Source of the DNA: Candidatus Nanopusillus sp.
Lineage (GTDB): Archaea > Nanobdellota > Nanobdellia > Nanobdellales > Nanobdellaceae
Reading direction: 5' to 3'
NCBI GenBank assembly: GCA_046536775.1
Contig: JAWDMD010000030.1
Location: forward strand, 1-5,488
DNA length: 5,488 nt
Shown: positions 170-5,488 of the stretch, one piece after another
Layout of the letters: every line of letters begins with the position of its first letter
Numbering within the stretch: the first letter of the stretch is position 1
The notes under the pieces: generated by a model
The model's database searches: none
Told to the model about the DNA's origin: nothing
The model's input: the letters and a program-made list of their open reading frames with translations, nothing else
Position numbers and translations under genes: made by a program

Positions 170-616
170 ATGATAAAGTATTGCCCTAAATGTGGAACAC
201 CTAATCAGAATGATGCTAAATTTTGCATTAAGTGTGGTTACCAGTTCCCACAGGAAGAACAAGTTTCAAAGCAACCACCTCAACAAATTGCTCAGTCCTC
301 CCCTCAGCCTATTCAACAAACAGCTCAGCATTCTCAACAAAAAATTCCAACTTCCAACCCAAAGCAAAAAAAGGGAAATGATATAGATTTGGAGCTTGCG
401 TTATTACTTATATTGGGTATTATAGGTATTATAATTCCATTTGAATTTTTTATTAAGTTATTTATAGTGTTAGGTATATTATTTATTATTTGGCGTATTT
501 ATAAAATTAATGAATATTGGGATCAAGGGCTAAAGAAATCCAGAATTGAGTATCAAGAGATCACAGAAAAATTAACTCAAATAATAGACCAGCTATCGCA
601 GAATAAATCAAAATAA
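170..616 (+). CDS. Small zinc-ribbon membrane protein: N-terminal CxxC...CxxC zinc ribbon, Gln/Pro-rich linker, hydrophobic TM region
   Basis: 148-codon ORF. The N-terminus [26 protein letters not shown] has a CPxCG-x11-CxxCG zinc-ribbon pattern. A low-complexity Q/P-rich linker follows ([23 protein letters not shown]). Then come about 45 hydrophobic residues ([33 protein letters not shown]), enough for two TM helices. A TATA-like tttaaata lies about 25-30 nt upstream of the ATG, and a T9 tract follows the stop. Confidence 0.75.
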
Positions 617-629
617 TTCCCAAAAGCAA

Positions 630-638
630 TTTTTTTTT
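630..638 (+). terminator. Oligo-T (T9) tract, archaeal-style terminator after the zinc-ribbon gene
   Basis: Nine consecutive T at 630-638, 14 nt after the stop at 614-616. An A6 run follows at 639-644, so the T/A tract could terminate transcription in both directions. Confidence 0.5.
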
Positions 639-805
639 AAAAAATACAGGTGATCCACGAGCAACTTTTGAATGAGGGTAATCAAAAACAAGTATAAAAT
701 TTGACATATAAAATGTTGACATGTAATTCCACTTTAGTTATATTTTTTTTTGAAATTTTAATGTATAGTAAAAGTTTCTACTCCTATTTTTTTAGTTCTC
801 TTTAT

Positions 806-814
806 AAAAAAAAA
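806..814 (-). terminator. Oligo-T (T9 on the - strand) downstream of GC-rich module D
   Basis: An A9 run on + at 806-814, plus A6 at 827-832, reads as T9 and T6 on the - strand just after the GC-rich sequence ends at about 843. Confidence 0.3.
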
Positions 815-842
815 TAAATACCTGTTAAAAAATATTTATTTT

Positions 843-1100
843 GGGACTTCCAACCCTAAGACTCCCTCTCCATACTTGTCGGAAGGAATTTTGCCGGGCA
901 GGTTATATTCGCAATCCAAAACTGAAATTAAGCATTTTTACAGTATCTATTATTGCATTGTAAAATTCTTTTCTATCCTCAAGCGATTAGGCTGGAGAAA
1001 AACAGCCAGCAGTTCCCGAAGTTCACCCTCCTCCCGAATGGCATTTCCCTCAGGGTGCTCAGGAACAGGTTCAGCCACGGAAACCTAGATTAGAGGAATA
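843..1100 (-). ncRNA. GC-rich module D: candidate structured non-coding RNA segment (family unknown). Two GC-rich blocks (843-905, 985-1100) flank an AT-rich core.
   Basis: It is C-rich on +, so G-rich on -. The only ORF (876-1088) gives a low-complexity S/R/P-rich translation. Short motifs are shared with modules A, B and C: cagccacgg at 1072-1080, tagagga at 1091-1097, gccgggcagg at 893-902. The segment ggcaggtta at 897-905 is the exact reverse complement of taacctgcc at 1388-1396. A TATA-like tttatatt (- strand, 1104-1111) lies just upstream. This is the weakest of the four modules. Confidence 0.3.
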
Positions 1101-1108
1101 CGTAATAT

Positions 1109-1116
1109 AAAAAAAA
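1109..1116 (-). terminator. Oligo-T (T8 on the - strand) at the 3' end of module A; overlaps a TATA-like box for module D
   Basis: An A8 run on + at 1109-1116 reads as T8 on -, directly after the GC-rich sequence ...cagcacagccctgta. The - strand reads ttttttttatattacg, which contains tttatatt. Confidence 0.35.
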
Positions 1117-1118
1117 TA

Positions 1119-1398
1119 CAGGGCTGTGCTGTTTTCTGTTCGTTTGTGCTGGGGTGAATGCCTGGATCCATGATTTTACAAATCTAGGGGACCGAGCCAC
1201 GGTAGTTCCATGTTCTTGTACCCCTGTGGTCCGGTTGGACAGGACCACCGTAACCTCCTTGGCCCCGTACCACAGTGGCCCATTAGCCCGGGGAGTACAG
1301 GGGAACTCAGCCCGATTCTGAGCTTCGGAAATCCAGGGAATCAGTGTCCAACTGCCCAATCCTATCCGGGGTCTGGCAGAGCTGTGGTAACCTGCCTT
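1119..1398 (-). ncRNA. GC-rich module A: candidate structured non-coding RNA (family unknown)
   Basis: Hand counts of four 60-nt rows give 52-65% GC, against 13-23% in the adjacent gene. Overlapping ORFs on both strands (1090-1359 -, 1210-1419 +) give implausible P/G/R/S-rich peptides. There is a perfect 7-bp long-range pairing of 1161-1167 (cctggat) with 1331-1337 (atccagg), enclosing about 163 nt. A perfect 7-bp hairpin pairs 1226-1232 with 1242-1248. An 8-bp helix with one bulged A pairs 1263-1270 with 1295-1303. A 5-bp hairpin pairs 1306-1310 with 1318-1322. The strand call rests on - strand T-tracts and the G-rich - strand. Confidence 0.45.
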
Positions 1399-1451
1399 AA
1401 GAATAAAAAACAGAAATAGAATTCGCCCCTAAAAAAATCTGTAAAGGCAGG
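1391..1451. repeat. Perfect 8-bp inverted repeat (cctgcctt / aaggcagg) closing the AT-rich spacer between modules A and B
   Basis: The segment 1391-1398 is the exact reverse complement of 1444-1451. The enclosed 45 nt (1399-1443) are AT-rich and contain both - strand oligo-T tracts: A6 at 1405-1410 and A7 at 1431-1437 on +. Confidence 0.6.
1431..1437 (-). terminator. Oligo-T (T7 on the - strand) at the 3' end of module B; first strong T-tract downstream of the 657-aa gene
   Basis: An A7 run on + at 1431-1437 reads on the - strand as ...ctcctgcctttacagatttttttagggg. Between the gene stop (1809) and this site, the - strand has no T-run longer than 4. Confidence 0.4.
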
Positions 1452-1790
1452 AGATCTATTAGGGGTCTCAGGAAAACCATTGAAAACTCAGAGAGCCACC
1501 TAGCCAGGGCTTTCAGTCCCTTGCTACTCCGTCCTCAGGTCTCCCAGCTAGCAGTCCCAGACTTTCCAGCCCTGCCCCCAGCCGGGCTCAACCAGATTTT
1601 TCAGTACCCATGCCCAAACCCATGTTTTTCAGCCCGGCCAGTTAGGCGACCCCATAAGACAGTCGGTGTGTCCAGCGGTACTCCCAGTCTACAGGTCCTG
1701 TTGCCCTGATCTTCTGCGAAGTCCACAGAATTATAAAGCTAAGCTGGGGGCAGAAGGCGTTGCAGAATGTGTATCAGTATCGGTCTGTTT
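1444..1790 (-). ncRNA. GC-rich module B: candidate structured RNA, possibly the structured 3' UTR of the 657-aa gene (family unknown)
   Basis: Hand-counted rows give 48-60% GC, and the module starts about 20 nt after the gene stop. A perfect 11-bp long-range pairing joins 1572-1582 (ctgcccccagc) and 1743-1753 (gctgggggcag), enclosing about 160 nt. A 5-bp hairpin pairs 1712-1716 with 1726-1730. The + strand has two internal T5 runs (1597-1601, 1625-1629) that would hinder + strand transcription in an archaeon. The + strand is C-rich. Collinear sequence blocks are shared with module C. Confidence 0.5.
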
Positions 1791-1808
1791 TGTTTGAATA
1801 AATTAGAA

Positions 1809-3782
1809 TTAAATAAAATGCAGAATCCCCAAAAGCTGCAGAATTCCCAATAATATTAATGCCAATGTTAATACTATTAACAATCCAGTAATTTCTTTAT
1901 TTTCTTCAGCTATTTCATAGTTTGAAAACAATTGAAGTCTATCCAAAAGCACCTTATGATAATAGTTTAATTTAAATGTATCTTTAATATTTTCGAATGT
2001 TTCTCTAAAAAATTTGGCATCGACAATATCTATATCATAATAAAATTCAAAGTCAGAAATAGCCTTTTGTGTAATTTTTTTAAGTTCTTTAGGACGAGGT
2101 TTTTTCTTTGATAAATGTTCTTCTATTTCGTTATTATATAAAATAAAGTAAGTGGCACTAGTTGTTGCCATATCTCCTAACAAAATTGACCAAGCTATAC
2201 CCCATTTTAACCCACACTCCTTAAAATTGATTATATTTTGATAAAAATCCTTCATATTACATAAATCCAAAAGAGTTACCCCACAATAATAATTTTCAAA
2301 AACAATTTCTTCAGGTACTACAGATCCATTTTCTTTAATTTCTTTTATAATGGTTTTAAAAGTTGTATCTTTCTTTTTATAATGTCTTTTTCTCACCCCT
2401 AAAAATTCTGATATATCTTCAATAAAATAGTCAGGAATTTTTTTCAAATCATAATTTTCAAGTTCCGGTCCTTTATCCAATACTATTTGTGAATTTTGGA
2501 AAATAATAAATGTTTGCTGTTTTTTGATATTTTCAATAAATCTATCAGGGTTCAGTGACTTTTTATATAATTTTATTATTTTATAAAAACTTTCTTTAAT
2601 TTTTCTTTTGTTTCTTAATATAATATCTAATATAAATTCAAAAATTAGATGTTTTTCATTCTCATCATATTCTTTATTATATTTTTTTATAATAATTTCG
2701 GATAATTTATTGTAGATTACGTAATCTACTAGTTTTTTTAAATAATTTATTGTTTTAATTTTTTTATATATATTTTCTCTAATTGGATAAACGATTTCAT
2801 TCCATATATTTAGCAATAAAAAGTCTTCAAAAGTAACAAATTCTTTTATTTCCTTTTTCCCTTCGCTCTCTACCTGTAATTTTCTTATATATTTGTTTCC
2901 GTAAATATTTTCTTTATCGCCTTTAATTTCATTCCCGTTTGAATTATTTTCATTTTTCCATTCAACATAAAAATCTTCAATATTTCTTAAAAAATAATCA
3001 TAGTCAAAATTCTTATCATTTTTTATTAAACGCTCTATAACAAATGTAACCGTTGCCACCCTCGAAATTGTATTATTATCATCATCATAATCAACATGTA
3101 AATAACCTTTGATGTTAGCATCAAATGTCTGCTCTTTGATAATGGGCGTTTGATTTACATAATTTTTATTAGTAATGTAAGCCATTTCATTTTTATATTC
3201 AAAGGAATAAGTTACCGGCTTCGAATCTTCAATTTCATAAAAATTTAAGTTTTCATTAAAAAACCTGATATGTATAAATCCCTCCCTACCTTTAGGGGTT
3301 AACACTTCATTTTTTCTTTCAAATAAATATAATAGGTTAATATCAACTTCTTCTTTTTCCTCAATTTTTTTCTTATCAATAATATATTCCTGAATATAAT
3401 CGTCAACAGTTTCAGGAGATAATAACAAAAAATTTTTAGGTATTAACTCCAATAAGTGTTGTTTATTAATCTTACTTATTTCCTTTCCTTTGCTTATATA
3501 TTTTTTAAATTCTTCAAAATTTATATCACTAATTTCTCCATTATTTGTTAAATCAACGCCAATGGTTATAATTCTTGCCCCATCTTTAATTTTTCTTTCA
3601 TATTTTTTTGGGTTTAATACTGATGCCTTCTTTTTATATTCCTCTTCTATAATCTGTTGCTGTTCTGGGGTTAATTGGTCTTTATTTTTTTCATAAATTT
3701 CCTTAATTGAATAATATTCGTATGGTGTAGTAATATTTTTGATCTTTTCCAGAAGATCTTCAAAGTTAGTTAATGTTAACAT
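1809..3782 (-). CDS. 657-aa hypothetical protein with a C-terminal transmembrane anchor (orphan, no recognisable catalytic domain)
   Basis: This is an uninterrupted 657-codon ORF in DNA so AT-rich that stop codons should be frequent by chance. The protein is rich in K, E, N and I. The last ~27 residues (ITGLLIVLTLALILLGILQLLGILHFI) form a tail-anchor-like TM helix. A second hydrophobic stretch is GLKWGIAWSILLGDMATTSATYFILY. The ATG at 3780-3782 sits about 23-26 nt downstream of a TATA-like box, suggesting a leaderless mRNA. Confidence 0.85.
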   Translation of the reverse strand: MLTLTNFEDLLEKIKNITTPYEYYSIKEIYEKNKDQLTPEQQQIIEEEYKKKASVLNPKKYERKIKDGARIITIGVDLTNNGEISDINFEEFKKYISKGKEISKINKQHLLELIPKNFLLLSPETVDDYIQEYIIDKKKIEEKEEVDINLLYLFERKNEVLTPKGREGFIHIRFFNENLNFYEIEDSKPVTYSFEYKNEMAYITNKNYVNQTPIIKEQTFDANIKGYLHVDYDDDNNTISRVATVTFVIERLIKNDKNFDYDYFLRNIEDFYVEWKNENNSNGNEIKGDKENIYGNKYIRKLQVESEGKKEIKEFVTFEDFLLLNIWNEIVYPIRENIYKKIKTINYLKKLVDYVIYNKLSEIIIKKYNKEYDENEKHLIFEFILDIILRNKRKIKESFYKIIKLYKKSLNPDRFIENIKKQQTFIIFQNSQIVLDKGPELENYDLKKIPDYFIEDISEFLGVRKRHYKKKDTTFKTIIKEIKENGSVVPEEIVFENYYCGVTLLDLCNMKDFYQNIINFKECGLKWGIAWSILLGDMATTSATYFILYNNEIEEHLSKKKPRPKELKKITQKAISDFEFYYDIDIVDAKFFRETFENIKDTFKLNYYHKVLLDRLQLFSNYEIAEENKEITGLLIVLTLALILLGILQLLGILHFI

Positions 3783-3804
3783 AAATAATATATTATATCA
3801 GTAA

Positions 3805-3812
3805 AATATAAA
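3805..3812 (-). promoter_or_regulatory. Candidate archaeal TATA box (tttatatt) with a purine-rich BRE-like agaaaaa upstream, for the 657-aa gene
   Basis: The - strand reads ttagaaaaatttatattttactgatataatatattatttATG. The box centre lies about 26 nt upstream of the ATG, which would give a leaderless transcript. The background is AT-rich, so a chance match is possible. Confidence 0.4.
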
Positions 3813-3883
3813 TTTTTCTAAAATAATTCATTGTTAGTTTAAATGCCATAATATATACAATGTTGCTATATGAATCAGAATTT

Positions 3884-4066
3884 TAGAGGGACCAGCATGG
3901 TCTGATAAGGTGATAATCAGTTTAAGGGACCCGCCGTACCAGAGCCACTGCCCCAACCCCCTTATCGGTGGTCAAGCCCTGCCGTACCCAGCCCCACCCG
4001 GATCCAGCCGGGTCAAATTCAGTCAATTTCAGTGAGTCTGGGGTCATGGGGGTGGCGAATGCAGGG
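3884..4066 (-). ncRNA. GC-rich module C: candidate structured RNA upstream of the 657-aa gene; a shorter relative of module B (and partly A)
   Basis: Hand-counted rows give 55-63% GC and there is no ORF. The + strand is strongly C-rich (3931-3960 has 17 C against 5 G). A perfect 6-bp hairpin pairs 3996-4001 (acccgg) with 4008-4013 (ccgggt). A 12-position pairing joins 3939-3950 and 4030-4041, giving 10 bp with a central 2x2 mismatch. A 6-bp pairing joins 3977-3982 (ccctgc) and 4061-4066 (gcaggg). Blocks shared with B are agccctgcc, ccagccggg, tcaa, tttcagt and gtaccca(t)gccc. The strand is uncertain, because TATA-like boxes exist on both sides. Confidence 0.5.
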
Positions 4067-4320
4067 ATAAAAATATGCAATTTGATTAATGTGCTTGAAT
4101 TCTATAATGAGGAGAAGAAGGAGAAGAAAAAAAAGCTTCATAATTAATCATCTTGGTTTTTATTAGAAAAGCAATTAATTTTTATTTCTCATGCTTATAA
4201 AAAGCATTAAAGGCATTTTTTAAAACAAGGAAGGAGTAAAAACATGTTTTCATTAACCGATTTGGATAATGTATTCTAATCGTTTTTCCCCCTTTTTGAA
4301 AAACTGATAAAAACATAGAA

Positions 4321-4343: not shown

Positions 4344-4616
4344 TCAATTAATTATGGATCTTGAGGGTATTTATATACCTCGGAGGAAATTTTCTAGGCT
4401 AAAAGATAGAAAAATATGAAAATTCCTATATAAAGTATATTCGAAAAATATTGAACTTTTACATAAACATAATTGATACACTTACCCAAAGAGAATTTAA
4501 AAATACTAAATTTCACAAAAAAAGTGGATCATCAACACATATTATACGAATTATGAGGTAAATTGATAAAATAAGGGAAGGTATCTGTTGCAGATGCAAA
4601 ATACGCATCATATACA

Positions 4617-5318
4617 ATGATGAACACAATGAGGTCACTGAGGCACTTAATAAACGAGGGAGTAGATCTAAACAACAGAGAATCATTTAAGAACTGGATT
4701 CTGAAAATGAAAAGAAAAGGGGTAATGGACAAGACTCTGAACATATACATAAAGGCATATAACAGTTATCTTGAATGGAAGGGCGAGGAAAAAATAAAAC
4801 CTTATAAGGAGATGAGGGCATTTAAGACGGCCAGGGCTACAGAAGAGGATTACAAAAAACTGATGGATGCCTGCTATGGATATACTGAAATAAGAAATAA
4901 ACTTATGATAGACCTTTTATTCAAAACTGGGATCAGGTACAGGGAATTAATAAATATCAGGCTAGAAGACATAAAGGAAGATACTTTAATAGTAAGGGGC
5001 AAAGGGCAGAAAATTAGAGTAGTACATCTCCCAAGATCTGTAAGAGATCTACTCAAAGAGTATTTAAAAATAAGAAAAGCAAAACCTGGGAACAATTTCC
5101 TTTTTGTAAATTATTATGGAGACCAGTTGACATATGCGGGAGGTCATAAAATACTGAATGAAATTGCAAAAAGGGCAGGGGTACACTTTTCGCCACACTT
5201 GGCGAGGCGGTTTTAAACAAGAAAATTATATCAGGAGGGCTATGATATTGAAAAAATCCGCCTGTTGCTTGGTCATGAAAAGCTAGATACCACAAAAACA
5301 TACCTCAAAGTGGATTAA
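4617..5318 (+). pseudogene. Tyrosine recombinase / phage-type integrase (XerC/D-like) interrupted by one in-frame TAA at 5214-5216
   Basis: The conserved recombinase motifs appear in order: LLFKTGIRYRE (Arg I), RGKGQKIRVVHLP (Lys beta-hairpin), SPHLARRF (His-x-x-Arg). After the TAA, in the same frame, comes TRKLYQEGYDIEKIRLLLGHEKLDTTKTYLKVD*, which carries His II and the catalytic Tyr. The stop sits where the consensus H-x-L-R-H-x-F-A-T has the Ala. It therefore removes the catalytic Tyr from the 199-aa product. Confidence 0.85.
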
Positions 5319-5356
5319 GAGGATGCAATTAACGAGCTTAGAAAGAAGGACTTCGA

Positions 5357-5362
5357 TTTTTT
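5357..5362 (+). terminator. Oligo-T (T6) tract after the integrase reading frame
   Basis: T6 lies at 5357-5362, about 40 nt after the stop at 5316-5318. Confidence 0.3.
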
Positions 5363-5411
5363 ATATTTAAATCCTGAGGTACAAAACCAGACAACTCCGT
5401 CTAGTATCTTA

Positions 5412-5484
5412 CGCCCCGGACGGGATTTGAACCCGTGTCACGAGCTCGACAGGCTCGTATGATAGGCCACTACACTACCGGGGC
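5412..5484 (-). tRNA. tRNA-Asp (anticodon GUC), archaeal type, CCA not encoded
   Basis: The - strand reads GCCCCGGTAGTGTAGTGGCCTATCATACGAGCCTGTCGAGCTCGTGACACGGGTTCAAATCCCGTCCGGGGCG (73 nt). The acceptor stem is 7 bp (GCCCCGG/CCGGGGC). The anticodon stem CGAGC/GCTCG carries the loop CTGTCGA, giving anticodon GTC. The T arm is ACGGG-TTCAAAT-CCCGT and the discriminator is G. The next bases are TAAG, so no CCA is encoded. The GCCC start, GTGTAGTGGCC D-arm and TTCAAATCC T-loop are typical of archaeal tRNA-Asp. Confidence 0.92.
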
Positions 5485-5488
5485 TTCG

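What the first reader, a model, noticed from the sequence alone, without database searches (positions are those of the whole stretch)
843..4066. Cassette-level hypothesis: RNA module, orphan membrane-anchored protein and RNA modules form one unit inside an integrase/tRNA island
On the - strand the order is module C, a TATA-like box, the 657-aa gene, then module B starting about 20 nt after the stop. Next come the T7 tract, module A, T8, module D and T6/T9. No strong T-tract separates the gene from module B, so B is probably co-transcribed as a long structured 3' extension. The cassette is compositionally bimodal: a roughly 20% GC gene sits between roughly 57% GC RNA-like modules. It lies about 1.3 kb from a decayed integrase next to a tRNA, where accessory, defence or mobile cargo is expected. 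One possibility is that the protein and the RNAs work together, for example as a ribonucleoprotein or an RNA-regulated membrane effector. That is speculation.
Basis: inference. Interest (0 to 1): 0.75.

Follow-up and report, generated by a model that had tools for sequence, protein, structure and literature searches.

The report
Portable gene cassette with GC-rich tails
An AT-rich gene for an unknown membrane-anchored protein travels with GC-rich non-coding DNA as a small movable unit in hot-spring nano-archaea and a likely host lineage, but the GC-rich pieces do not behave like classic folded RNAs and not all of them belong to the unit.

Summary
A 657-aa ORF at about 20% GC (1809-3782, minus strand) lies between non-coding blocks at 49-55% GC. 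The window is a whole contig from a Candidatus Nanopusillus MAG. It ends in a stop-interrupted tyrosine recombinase and tRNA-Asp.

Comparison with 38 related loci redraws the unit. The part that recurs in different contexts is window 1432-3928: 146 nt with the gene's own TATA promoter, the ORF and block B.
- A second GC-rich family (A, called E elsewhere) usually follows B.
- D and the GC-rich part of C are optional or replaced.
- Close homologs also occur without B.

The blocks match no Rfam family. They fold no better than shuffles and show little conserved structure, so the ribonucleoprotein idea is unsupported. They do carry gene-strand-specific biases, and T-tracts mark their 3' ends.

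The cassette also lies next to a tRNA in a Thermocladium-like chromosome. In one locus it sits inside a CRISPR array in place of one spacer, flanked by a 37-nt duplication of B. That arrangement implies a ~2.9-kb circular or tandem form.

The protein family is uncharacterised. The confident AF2 model has no fold match.

Verdict: a mobile accessory cassette with cis-linked GC-rich flanks of unknown function.

The parts
170..616 (+). Neighbouring gene for a 148-aa zinc-ribbon protein with a hydrophobic C-terminal part. It is not part of the cassette.
   Evidence: ORF. Pfam Zn_Ribbon_1 at 1.6e-08. NCBI names it as a protein of a Candidatus Nanopusillus sp. MAG.
841..917 (-). Block D2. It is GC-rich and non-coding, is followed on the minus strand by T6/T9, and is optional.
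   Evidence: GC 0.49. Present only in the window-like loci, L002/L008, L010/L020 and L026.
973..1097 (-). Block D1. It is GC-rich, non-coding and optional. It contains a GCTGG...T5...CCAGC hairpin and one G-tract motif on the gene strand.
   Evidence: GC 0.53. Same distribution as D2. L022 diverges from the window at about 1074. G-tract motif at 1015-1049.
1112..1401 (-). Block A, a member of the A/E family of GC-rich non-coding blocks that follow B. This is a contracted version with only 1-2 relics of the ~17-nt partly palindromic repeat. T8 lies at its 3' end (1110-1117).
   Evidence: Alignment A3 shows 94% column identity and 1-nt indels. 71% identity over 168 nt to block E of L035. Family alignment and nhmmer hits.
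1431..1437 (-). T-tract after B, at the recurrent homology breakpoint (1432). It is the probable end of the gene+B transcript.
   Evidence: Sequence. Breakpoint at 1432 in more than 12 loci. Two alternative continuations follow it.
1440..1808 (-). Block B, a GC-rich non-coding tail that starts right after the stop codon. It is the probable 3' untranslated part of the mRNA. It holds a CRISPR protospacer-like segment (B positions about 152-189).
   Evidence: Alignment A2. nhmmer finds it in 32 loci. CTGA occurs 7 times against TCAG once. Two G-tract motifs. 37-nt duplication next to CRISPR repeats in L007.
1809..3782 (-). Gene for a 657-aa protein with a C-terminal transmembrane helix. It belongs to an uncharacterised family.
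   Evidence: ORF. 24 close homologs and 71 representatives by exhaustive HMM search. dN/dS 0.34-0.54. AF2 pLDDT 84.7 and pTM 0.85. No fold or family match.
3783..3928 (-). Conserved 146-nt upstream region with the gene's promoter (TATA 3806-3812, BRE 3813-3819) and a CTGAT...ATCAG hairpin. This is the 5' edge of the portable unit.
   Evidence: Alignment A4. Recurrent breakpoints at 3925-3941.
3929..4080 (-). GC-rich part of block C. It lies upstream of the promoter, is variable between loci and is not an obligatory part of the unit. It holds the palindrome ACCCGG-CTGGAT-CCGGGT and one G-tract motif.
   Evidence: GC 0.55. Replaced by other GC-rich sequence in L003/L028/L011 and L007, and absent in L018/L027, L020 and L023. 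Palindrome. G-tract motif at 3977-3999.
4617..5320 (+). Tyrosine recombinase (integrase) gene interrupted by an in-frame TAA at 5214-5216.
   Evidence: Pfam Phage_integrase. Reading of the frame. Intact 281-305-aa relatives. The relative in L037 overlaps tRNA-Asp and has different cargo on its other side.
5412..5484 (-). tRNA-Asp (GTC), the attachment-site gene of the integrative element.
   Evidence: ARAGORN. Rfam tRNA at 64.2 bits.

Best explanation
The window carries a small portable accessory-gene cassette as cargo of a decaying integrative element at tRNA-Asp in a Nanopusillus genome.

Core of the cassette (window 1432-3928):
- a BRE/TATA promoter about 27 nt from the ATG, which implies a leaderless mRNA;
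- an AT-rich ORF for a tail-anchored membrane protein of an uncharacterised family;
- a GC-rich untranslated tail of about 360 nt (B). I infer that B is transcribed with the gene, because the first archaeal-type oligo-T signals come only after it.

A second GC-rich block of the A/E family normally follows. It comes either directly after B, as here, or after a 240-nt AT-rich spacer that ends in a hairpin plus T7.

The unit moves as a whole between hypervariable, defence- and mobile-element-rich regions. It can exist as a circular or tandem form of about 2.9 kb.

The GC-rich blocks are therefore cis-linked parts of the mobile unit: transcript tail, maintenance region or recombination region. They are not independent structured RNAs that partner with the protein.

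Shown: the anatomy, the portability, the non-coding nature and the absence of classic RNA-structure signals. Inferred: co-transcription of B, the circular intermediate, and any function of the blocks or the protein. Given the neighbourhood, a membrane-acting defence or exclusion factor is my guess for the protein.
For: Boundaries. Homology to loci in unrelated contexts stops at 1432 and at 3925-3941.

Contexts.
- A tRNA-Asp integrase element in a Nanopusillus MAG, whose cargo differs in L037.
- A 21-kb contig whose ABC ATPase is 93% identical to a Thermocladium modestius protein. There the cassette lies in a 4.3-kb AT-rich island next to a tRNA.
- Next to two tRNAs and a 54% GC His_Phos_1 gene in L003.
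- Next to a type IIG restriction-modification gene and IS debris in L036.
- Next to a methylase and an ABC/AAA ATPase in L004.

CRISPR locus L007. 2894 nt ordered B(152-361), spacer, E, promoter, gene, B(1-~195) lie between two CRISPR repeats, with a 37-nt duplication of B at each repeat. A Csx1 gene is adjacent.

A solitary copy of the same CRISPR repeat truncates E in L036, L015 and L030.

The promoter is conserved in all loci, including the 55-61% identical homolog L032.

No run of five or more T occurs inside B. T-runs follow B, A and D on the gene strand.

Gene-strand bias: CTGA occurs 15 times against 6.9+-2.3 in shuffles and against TCAG 3 times. G-tract motifs occur on that strand only.

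The gene is under purifying selection, with dN/dS 0.34-0.54.
Against: - No transcript data exist, so co-transcription of B and the strand of A, C and D are inferred from T-tracts and motif asymmetry only.
- B is absent from L012/L013, L019 and L033, so it is not needed for the gene to persist.
- The loci were all found through the protein, which biases the sample towards co-occurrence. Whether B or A/E occur alone in metagenomes could not be tested.
- The circular form rests on one locus. Later deletions could have shortened a larger inserted element.
- Block identities are sometimes above and sometimes below the gene's third-position identity. Recombination therefore blurs any argument from constraint.
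Confidence: 0.5

Rival explanations
1. The GC-rich blocks are genuine thermostable non-coding RNAs of new families. They act together with the membrane protein, either as a ribonucleoprotein or as an RNA-regulated effector.
For: - GC-rich islands in an AT-rich hyperthermophile genome are the classic signature of RNA genes (established knowledge).
- T-tracts lie at the 3' ends on the gene strand.
- The blocks show gene-strand CTGA enrichment and G-tract motifs.
- A is 92-96% identical between loci whose gene third positions are 83-90% identical.
- One compensatory change occurs in a B hairpin and one in an A/E hairpin.
- If the L007 array is read from its AT-rich leader side, the B-matching spacer would give a crRNA complementary to a gene-sense B transcript. 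The adjacent Csx1 points to an RNA-sensing type III system. This step is inference.
Against: - No Rfam match, even at E up to 1-5.
- Folding z-scores run from -2.0 to +1.0 on both strands at 37 and 80 C, while the tRNA control gives -2.4 to -4.0.
- RNAalifold covariation term is +1.0 and SCI is 0.16-0.58.
- Large indels and repeat-number changes occur inside B and E.
- The blocks are not complementary to each other.
- The gene occurs without B.
- C lies upstream of the promoter and is replaceable.
Confidence: 0.12
2. The GC-rich blocks are functionless debris of GC-richer donor DNA, from host crenarchaea or their IS elements. They were trapped beside the gene during repeated recombination in a hypervariable island and hitch-hike with it.
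For: - The same contigs hold other GC-rich foreign pieces. These include a TnpB gene at 0.52 GC in L002, an IS-like pseudogene and a TnpB fragment in L036, and a 54% GC His_Phos_1 gene in L003.
- The blocks are mosaic, with many breakpoints.
- They show no structural or coding signal.
Against: - GC stays at 53-63% in copies that have diverged to 72-80% identity inside genomes of 25-35% GC.
- In the roughly 45% GC Thermocladium-like contig, B is at 58% GC, richer than its surroundings.
- A is more conserved than the gene's third codon positions in all four comparable pairs.
- The strand-specific CTGA bias is reproduced in diverged B copies at 8-11 against 1.
- Six-frame translations hit no protein family.
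Confidence: 0.18
3. The cassette is a miniature plasmid-like replicon of about 2.9 kb. The large ORF would be its only, replication- or maintenance-related protein. The AT-rich spacer plus the repeat-bearing A/E block would be its origin. Chromosomal copies such as this window would be integrated, partly eroded forms.
For: - The circularly permuted copy in L007 implies a unit of about 2.86 kb made only of the gene, B, the spacer and E.
- E carries 5-14 degenerate ~17-nt repeats next to a 240-nt AT/T-rich spacer. That is the layout of iteron-type origins (established knowledge).
- CRISPR spacers recombining with B and E suggest the unit was treated as an invader.
- Its size and its one large ORF recall small cryptic archaeal plasmids (from memory, not tested).
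Against: - The protein has no similarity to any Rep, primase, helicase or HUH protein.
- The best-conserved part of the protein is a C-terminal domain followed by transmembrane helices, which is odd for an initiator.
- No free circular contig was seen. Nothing was found in IMG/VR, INPHARED or PLSDB.
- In the window the spacer is missing and the repeats are reduced to relics.
Confidence: 0.15

Closest known systems
tRNA-targeting integrative elements of archaea (tyrosine-recombinase islands with variable cargo)
   Same: A tyrosine recombinase gene lies next to, and in relatives overlaps, tRNA-Asp. The cargo differs between strains. The integrase is decaying.
   Different: No second att repeat was found within 10 kb. 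The cassette itself also occurs outside such elements, in a CRISPR array and beside other tRNAs in other genomes.
GC-rich RNA-gene islands in AT-rich hyperthermophile genomes (the basis of composition-based ncRNA screens)
   Same: Sharp blocks at 53-57% GC in a 20-30% GC background, ended by T-tracts.
   Different: No Rfam family, no excess folding energy and no conserved structure. GC is lower than the 63% of the neighbouring tRNA.
Integron gene cassettes (ORF plus attC, circular intermediates, array next to a tyrosine recombinase)
   Same: One ORF plus a 3' non-coding element behaves as a discrete, apparently circularisable unit near a tyrosine recombinase.
   Different: The cassette has its own promoter. 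B and A are 290-370 nt and lack the attC inverted core sites and hairpin. No cassette array was seen.
Small cryptic archaeal plasmids and iteron-type origins
   Same: The implied circle is about 2.9 kb and has one large ORF, an AT-rich spacer and a block of short repeats.
   Different: No Rep-like domain and no free circular record. The protein is membrane-anchored.
Insertion of mobile elements into CRISPR arrays by recombination between a spacer and its protospacer
   Same: In L007 the element lies between two repeats and is flanked by a spacer-length duplication of its own sequence.
   Different: Seen in a related locus, not in this window, which has no CRISPR repeat. The mechanism is inferred from the arrangement.
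CorA/ZntB divalent-cation channels
   Same: They are the top, very weak Foldseek hits. Both have a cytoplasmic alpha/beta part, long helices and C-terminal transmembrane helices. Remote family members have two such helices.
   Different: E-values of 0.08-1 and TM-scores of 0.11-0.13. No Pfam CorA hit. No GMN motif in the sequence.

Membership tests
Any Rfam RNA family | Covariance-model score at or above the family's gathering threshold | tested here: not met
   The window at E up to 1 gives tRNA only. Twenty related loci at gathering threshold give tRNAs only. L036 200-2200 at E up to 5 gives only chance-level hits.
Structured thermostable ncRNA (generic) | Folding energy clearly below that of dinucleotide shuffles | tested here: not met
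   z runs from -2.0 to +1.0 for A, B, C, D1 and D2 on both strands at 37 and 80 C. The tRNA control gives -2.4 to -4.0.
Structured thermostable ncRNA (generic) | Conserved secondary structure with compensatory changes | tested here: inconclusive
   For B (15 sequences) the covariation term is +1.01, 4 of 63 pairs have a double change, and the SCI is 0.16-0.58. One compensatory pair occurs in an A/E hairpin. The A copies are too similar (94%) to be informative.
C/D box sRNA | C box (RUGAUGA) paired with D box (CUGA) within about 50-70 nt | tested here: not met
   No RTGATGA occurs in any block on either strand. CTGA is present and enriched.
Integron gene cassette | 3' attC site with inverted core sites (RYYYAAC ... 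GTTRRRY) forming an imperfect hairpin | tested here: not met
   0-1 chance matches per block. No block-length inverted repeat.
Integron gene cassette | Promoterless ORF expressed from the platform promoter | tested here: not met
   A conserved BRE/TATA lies 27 nt upstream of the ATG in all loci.
tRNA-linked integrative element | Tyrosine recombinase gene adjacent to or overlapping a tRNA gene | tested here: met
   In L037/L038 the intact 300-aa homolog overlaps tRNA-Asp.
tRNA-linked integrative element | Direct att repeat of the tRNA end at the far border | tested here: inconclusive
   No second copy lies within the 10.6 kb held for L002 and L006. The far border may lie beyond the contigs.
tRNA-linked integrative element | Cargo that differs between strains at the same site | tested here: met
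   The window and L037 share only the integrase and tRNA (4589-5486, 83% identity). The sequence on the other side of the integrase is unrelated.
CRISPR array | Regularly spaced identical repeats with unique spacers | tested here: not met
   Not met in the window: no copy of the L007 repeat within 3 mismatches or 8 mismatches. Met in L007: 9 repeats, spacers of 39-45 nt and an adjacent Csx1 gene.
CorA/ZntB channel | Pfam CorA profile match, GMN motif and pentameric funnel fold | tested here: not met
   No Pfam hit for the window protein or for 47 relatives. Foldseek gives E 0.08-1 and TM 0.11-0.13. The sequence has no GMN.
Type III toxin-antitoxin (RNA repeats upstream of the toxin gene) | Tandem direct repeats upstream of the ORF, separated from it by a terminator | tested here: not met
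   TRF finds only a 10-nt x 2.2 repeat in C. C is replaceable.
Iteron-type plasmid origin with Rep gene | Array of short direct repeats next to an AT-rich region | tested here: inconclusive
   Present in related loci, where E has ~17-nt repeats after a 240-nt AT-rich spacer. In the window the spacer is absent and only 1-2 repeat relics remain.
Iteron-type plasmid origin with Rep gene | Recognisable replication initiator | tested here: not met
   No Rep, primase, helicase or HUH family or fold match.

The most novel reading that the evidence does not exclude
The cassette is an autonomous one-gene genetic element of about 2.9 kb that shuttles between Nanoarchaeota and their crenarchaeal hosts. 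Its GC-rich region (B plus A/E) would act on the gene strand as a new kind of RNA or origin module. That module would work with the membrane-anchored protein, which has a new fold, for replication, transfer between cells or exclusion. The element would be recognised and captured by the nanoarchaeal CRISPR system.
Probability: 0.15. Interest if true: 0.8.

Novelty: new variant of a known kind. Interest (0 to 1): 0.55.

Why it matters
If the reading holds, this would be one of the smallest discrete mobile units described for DPANN archaea. It would also be direct sequence evidence for gene traffic between a nano-sized symbiont lineage and Thermoproteales, which are plausible hosts. The CRISPR-array insertion gives a rare snapshot of recombination between a spacer and its target.

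The protein family is entirely uncharacterised. It has 71 cluster representatives, a confident model and no fold match, and it sits in defence-rich neighbourhoods. That makes it a reasonable candidate for a new membrane-acting defence or exclusion factor.

The GC-rich blocks also show that, in AT-rich thermophile genomes, GC-rich and non-coding does not automatically mean structured RNA.

Tried and rejected
- **Known RNA families:** Rfam searches at gathering and permissive thresholds found nothing.
- **Structured RNA:** single-sequence folding at 37 and 80 C on both strands, RNAalifold, and a sliding-window structure-conservation index with column shuffles gave no signal.
- **Long-range pairing of C with B, A or D, as in intron-like or processing stems:** scores are no better than shuffles. 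An RNAduplex attempt timed out.
- **Blocks as copies of one another:** no similarity among A, B, C and D in the window. Only A and E of other loci are related.
- **Decayed protein genes:** frame-breaking indels and no Pfam hit in six frames.
- **C/D box sRNAs and integron attC sites:** rejected.
- **MITE-like copies:** no extra copies in about 190 kb of related loci, apart from the permuted copy in L007. The terminal inverted repeat of A is only a weak visual match.
- **Protein function:** Pfam, PADLOC, NCBIfam, PHROGs, PDB by sequence, and Foldseek against PDB and BFVD all came back empty.
- **Other collections:** IMG/VR, INPHARED and PLSDB had no match to the gene or the blocks. GTDB representative genomes had none to the protein family.
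- **Searches that did not help:** the second word-indexed protein search with the deep alignment returned only the close family. Two alignments were too diverse for locus finding.
- **Far att repeat:** not found.
- **Other spacers of L007:** no match to any held sequence.

Full report
**What is in the window.**

The 5488-nt window is AT-rich, with sharply bounded GC-rich blocks at 841-917, 973-1097, 1115-1407, 1461-1788 and 3906-4080. Their GC is 0.49-0.55. A 1974-nt ORF (1809-3782, minus strand, 657 aa) lies between them at 0.12-0.35 GC per 100-nt window.

tRNA-Asp lies at 5412-5484. A tyrosine-recombinase gene runs from 4617. One in-frame TAA at 5214-5216 interrupts it, and the same frame continues through the LLGH...TKTY motifs.

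An exact look-up shows that the window is a complete 5488-nt contig of an NCBI MAG named Candidatus Nanopusillus sp. Relatives of the integrase at 90% identity or more are intact, at 281-305 aa.

**The gene is real and belongs to an uncharacterised family.**

Twenty-four close homologs exist, all from hot-spring metagenomes, and one is labelled Ca. Nanopusillus acidilobi. An exhaustive profile search of 1.84 billion representatives finds 71 with E up to 0.001. Their amino-acid compositions vary widely.

The family shares a C-terminal domain followed by one to three transmembrane helices. The domain pattern is W..SW..ML...F..YN..IE.H...L..T..A..DF..YYD...FE.AK..F.I..YY..L..RL.LFS..EI.

Pairwise dN/dS against the window gene is 0.34-0.54. 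That indicates purifying selection on a fast-evolving protein.

Pfam, PADLOC, NCBIfam, PHROGs and PDB sequence searches all find nothing. With the 48-sequence alignment, AlphaFold2 gives pLDDT 84.7 and pTM 0.85. With only the close family it gave pLDDT 53. Foldseek against PDB and BFVD gives no hit below E 0.07. The weak top PDB hits are CorA/ZntB at TM 0.11-0.13.

The protein has no N-terminal signal-like segment and ends in one long hydrophobic helix. It is most simply read as tail-anchored, with the bulk in the cytoplasm. This is inference.

**The blocks are non-coding and are not recognisable structured RNAs.**

- Homologs of B and A differ by 1-, 2-, 4- and 7-nt indels.
- Six-frame translations hit no Pfam family.
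- Rfam finds only tRNAs in the window and in 20 related loci.
- Minimum free energies are no better than dinucleotide shuffles on either strand at 37 or 80 C, with z from -2.0 to +1.0. The tRNA control gives -2.4 to -4.0.
- For B (15 sequences, 74% mean column identity) RNAalifold gives a covariation term of +1.0. Only 4 of 63 pairs show a double change.
- Sliding windows give a structure-conservation index of 0.16-0.58.
- The blocks are not complementary to one another. They are not copies of one another.

**Comparative anatomy redefines the unit.**

One metagenome scan with the protein alignment gave 32 loci. Further look-ups brought the total to 38. Four results follow from BLAST and nhmmer of the blocks against these loci.

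1. B follows the stop codon in nearly all loci with enough 3' flank.
   - The exceptions are L012/L013 (none), L019 (first 60 nt only, then a GNAT gene) and the divergent L033.
2. In loci with unrelated surroundings, homology to the window ends at exactly 1432, the 3' end of B (...ACAGATCTTTTAG). On the other side it ends at 3925-3941, 146 nt upstream of the ATG.
3. Two continuations exist after 1432.
   - Block A follows directly in the window, L002, L004, L010, L022 and L026.
   - Elsewhere a 240-nt AT-rich spacer follows, ending in CTCTGA-aattttta-TCAGAG plus T7, and then a GC-rich block E.
   - A and E are one family: 71% identity over 168 nt, with an alignment and nhmmer hits.
   - E carries 5-14 degenerate, partly palindromic ~17-nt repeats. 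A keeps one or two.
4. D occurs in one lineage only. The GC-rich part of C is replaced by other GC-rich sequence in L003/L028/L011 and L007, and is absent in L018/L027, L020 and L023.

The promoter is conserved everywhere, including the 55-61% identical homolog L032. It reads AAAAATTTATAT, with the TATA about 27 nt from the ATG. The mRNA is therefore probably leaderless, and C lies outside it.

**Contexts show a mobile, island-type cargo.**

- In this lineage the cassette lies inside an element bounded by tRNA-Asp and the integrase. In L037/L038 an intact 300-aa integrase overlaps tRNA-Asp. There the window matches only 4589-5486 (83% identity), and the cargo is different.
- L002 extends the element with small ORFs, MCM fragments and a GC-rich TnpB gene.
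- L027, a 21.5-kb contig, places the cassette in a 4.3-kb AT-rich island beside a tRNA in a genome of about 45% GC. Its ABC ATPase is 93% identical to a Thermocladium modestius protein. L018 and L029, from other datasets, reproduce the same junction.
- Other neighbours are two tRNAs and a 54% GC phosphatase gene (L003), a type IIG restriction-modification gene with IS debris (L036), and a methylase with an ABC/AAA ATPase (L004).
- The gene and the blocks are absent from IMG/VR, INPHARED and PLSDB. The protein family is absent from GTDB representative genomes.

**The CRISPR locus.**

L007 holds a true CRISPR array. It has nine copies of CTGCCATACTACTTAGTACTTCGGAATC and spacers of 39-45 nt. An AT-rich leader-like region and a Csx1 (CARF-HEPN) gene are adjacent.

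Between the second and third repeats lie 2894 nt in place of one spacer. Their order is B(152-361), AT spacer, a short E, the 146-nt promoter region, the 655-aa gene, then B(1-~195). Each end abuts a repeat with a 37-nt copy of the same B segment.

This arrangement is what recombination between a spacer and its protospacer would produce, if the protospacer sat on a circular or tandemly repeated unit of about 2.86 kb made only of the cassette. This is inference.

A solitary copy of the same repeat cuts E short in L036, L015 and L030. That suggests a second such event.

The window itself has no CRISPR repeat.

**Signals in favour of gene-strand function of the blocks.**

- T-runs follow B, A and D on the minus strand, and none of five or more T lies inside B.
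- CTGA occurs 15 times on the gene strand of the window blocks. Dinucleotide shuffles give 6.9+-2.3, and 0 of 500 reach 15. Its complement TCAG occurs 3 times. Diverged B copies show 8-11 against 1.
- All four G3+N1-12 x4 motifs in the window lie on the gene strand, inside C, B and D1.
- A is 92-96% identical between loci whose gene third positions are 83-90% identical. B and C are sometimes more and sometimes less conserved than the gene, which shows recombination.
- GC stays at 53-63% in copies that have diverged to 72-80% identity.

**Interpretation.**

The best-supported reading is a portable cassette made of promoter, gene and B, usually followed by an A/E block. In this window it is carried as cargo of a decaying tRNA-Asp integrative element. 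B is most likely the untranslated 3' tail of the mRNA.

The function of B and A/E is not established. They are linked in cis to the unit and are strand-biased, but they are not classic folded RNAs.

Two other rivals remain:
- the blocks are inert GC-rich debris, of a kind that is demonstrably present elsewhere in these contigs;
- the unit is a mini-plasmid, with the AT spacer and repeats as its origin.

The protein's role is unknown. I propose a membrane-acting defence or exclusion function, based on three things:
- its tail anchor;
- its fast evolution;
- its neighbours (CRISPR, restriction-modification, TnpB, ATPases).

This rests on association only.

**Limits.**

- All related loci were found through the protein, so co-occurrence of gene and blocks is biased upward.
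- Solo copies of the blocks in metagenomes could not be searched.
- The contexts of the remote homologs could not be fetched.
- No expression data were available.

Noticed in passing
L007 429-3867 (array), 526-3419 (insert), 4347-5759 (Csx1): A CRISPR array of nine 28-nt repeats holds the whole cassette (2894 nt) in place of one spacer. A 37-nt duplication of block B lies next to each flanking repeat, and a CARF-HEPN Csx1 gene is adjacent.
   Followed up: yes
L036 887-914; L015 3418-3445; L030 1421-1448: A solitary copy of the same CRISPR repeat (one mismatch) lies directly after a truncated block E. This looks like a second junction between a GC-rich block and a CRISPR array.
   Followed up: partly
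L027 3600-7890 within a 21.5-kb contig: The AT-rich cassette sits in a 4.3-kb AT-rich island beside a tRNA in a genome of about 45% GC. That genome's ABC ATPase is 93% identical to a Thermocladium modestius protein, which suggests transfer between Nanoarchaeota-type and Thermoproteales genomes.
   Followed up: partly
window blocks 841-1800 and 3885-4080, minus strand: CTGA occurs 15 times on the gene strand, against 6.9+-2.3 in shuffles and against TCAG 3 times. It is mostly followed by A or G. The bias recurs in diverged copies of B. No C box accompanies it.
   Followed up: partly
window 3977-3999, 1607-1635, 1543-1579, 1015-1049 (minus strand): All four G-quadruplex-type motifs (four G3+ tracts with loops of up to 12 nt) in the window lie on the gene strand inside blocks C, B and D1. 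None lies on the plus strand.
   Followed up: no
L003 4895-5008; L009 2560-2760; L035 950-1200: Block E contains a variable number of degenerate ~17-nt partly palindromic repeats (GGGTACTGGRCCACTGT). It is open in all six frames.
   Followed up: partly
window 2583-2734 (codons about 350-400 of the gene): A segment of about 60 codons, predicted as part of a long helix pair, is present in the window, L002, L005-type and L007 proteins. It is missing from most other close homologs.
   Followed up: no
L027 7220-7285: A perfect 33-nt tandem duplication at the 3' end of the gene repeats the last 11 codons (ILDIPRYFIKF twice), as in protein P0017.
   Followed up: no
L002 9994-10644; L036 6095-6409 and 1340-1990: GC-rich TnpB (IS200/IS605-type) genes and an IS-like pseudogene lie in otherwise AT-rich contigs. 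GC-rich foreign DNA is therefore common in these islands.
   Followed up: partly
L037 2639-3563; L038 532-1456: In related Nanopusillus-type contigs the intact 300-aa integrase gene overlaps tRNA-Asp on the opposite strand by about 50 nt. Housekeeping genes follow (PRPP synthase, an MFS transporter).
   Followed up: partly
window 622-639 and 4167-4184: An 18-nt direct repeat (AAAAGCAATTWWTTTTTA, 89% identical) brackets the region from D to C. It may be chance in AT-rich DNA.
   Followed up: no
L003 5294-5315 versus 2462-2483: A 22-nt copy (91% identical) of the gene's promoter sequence lies just after block E. This fits a circularly permuted or tandem origin of the arrangement.
   Followed up: no
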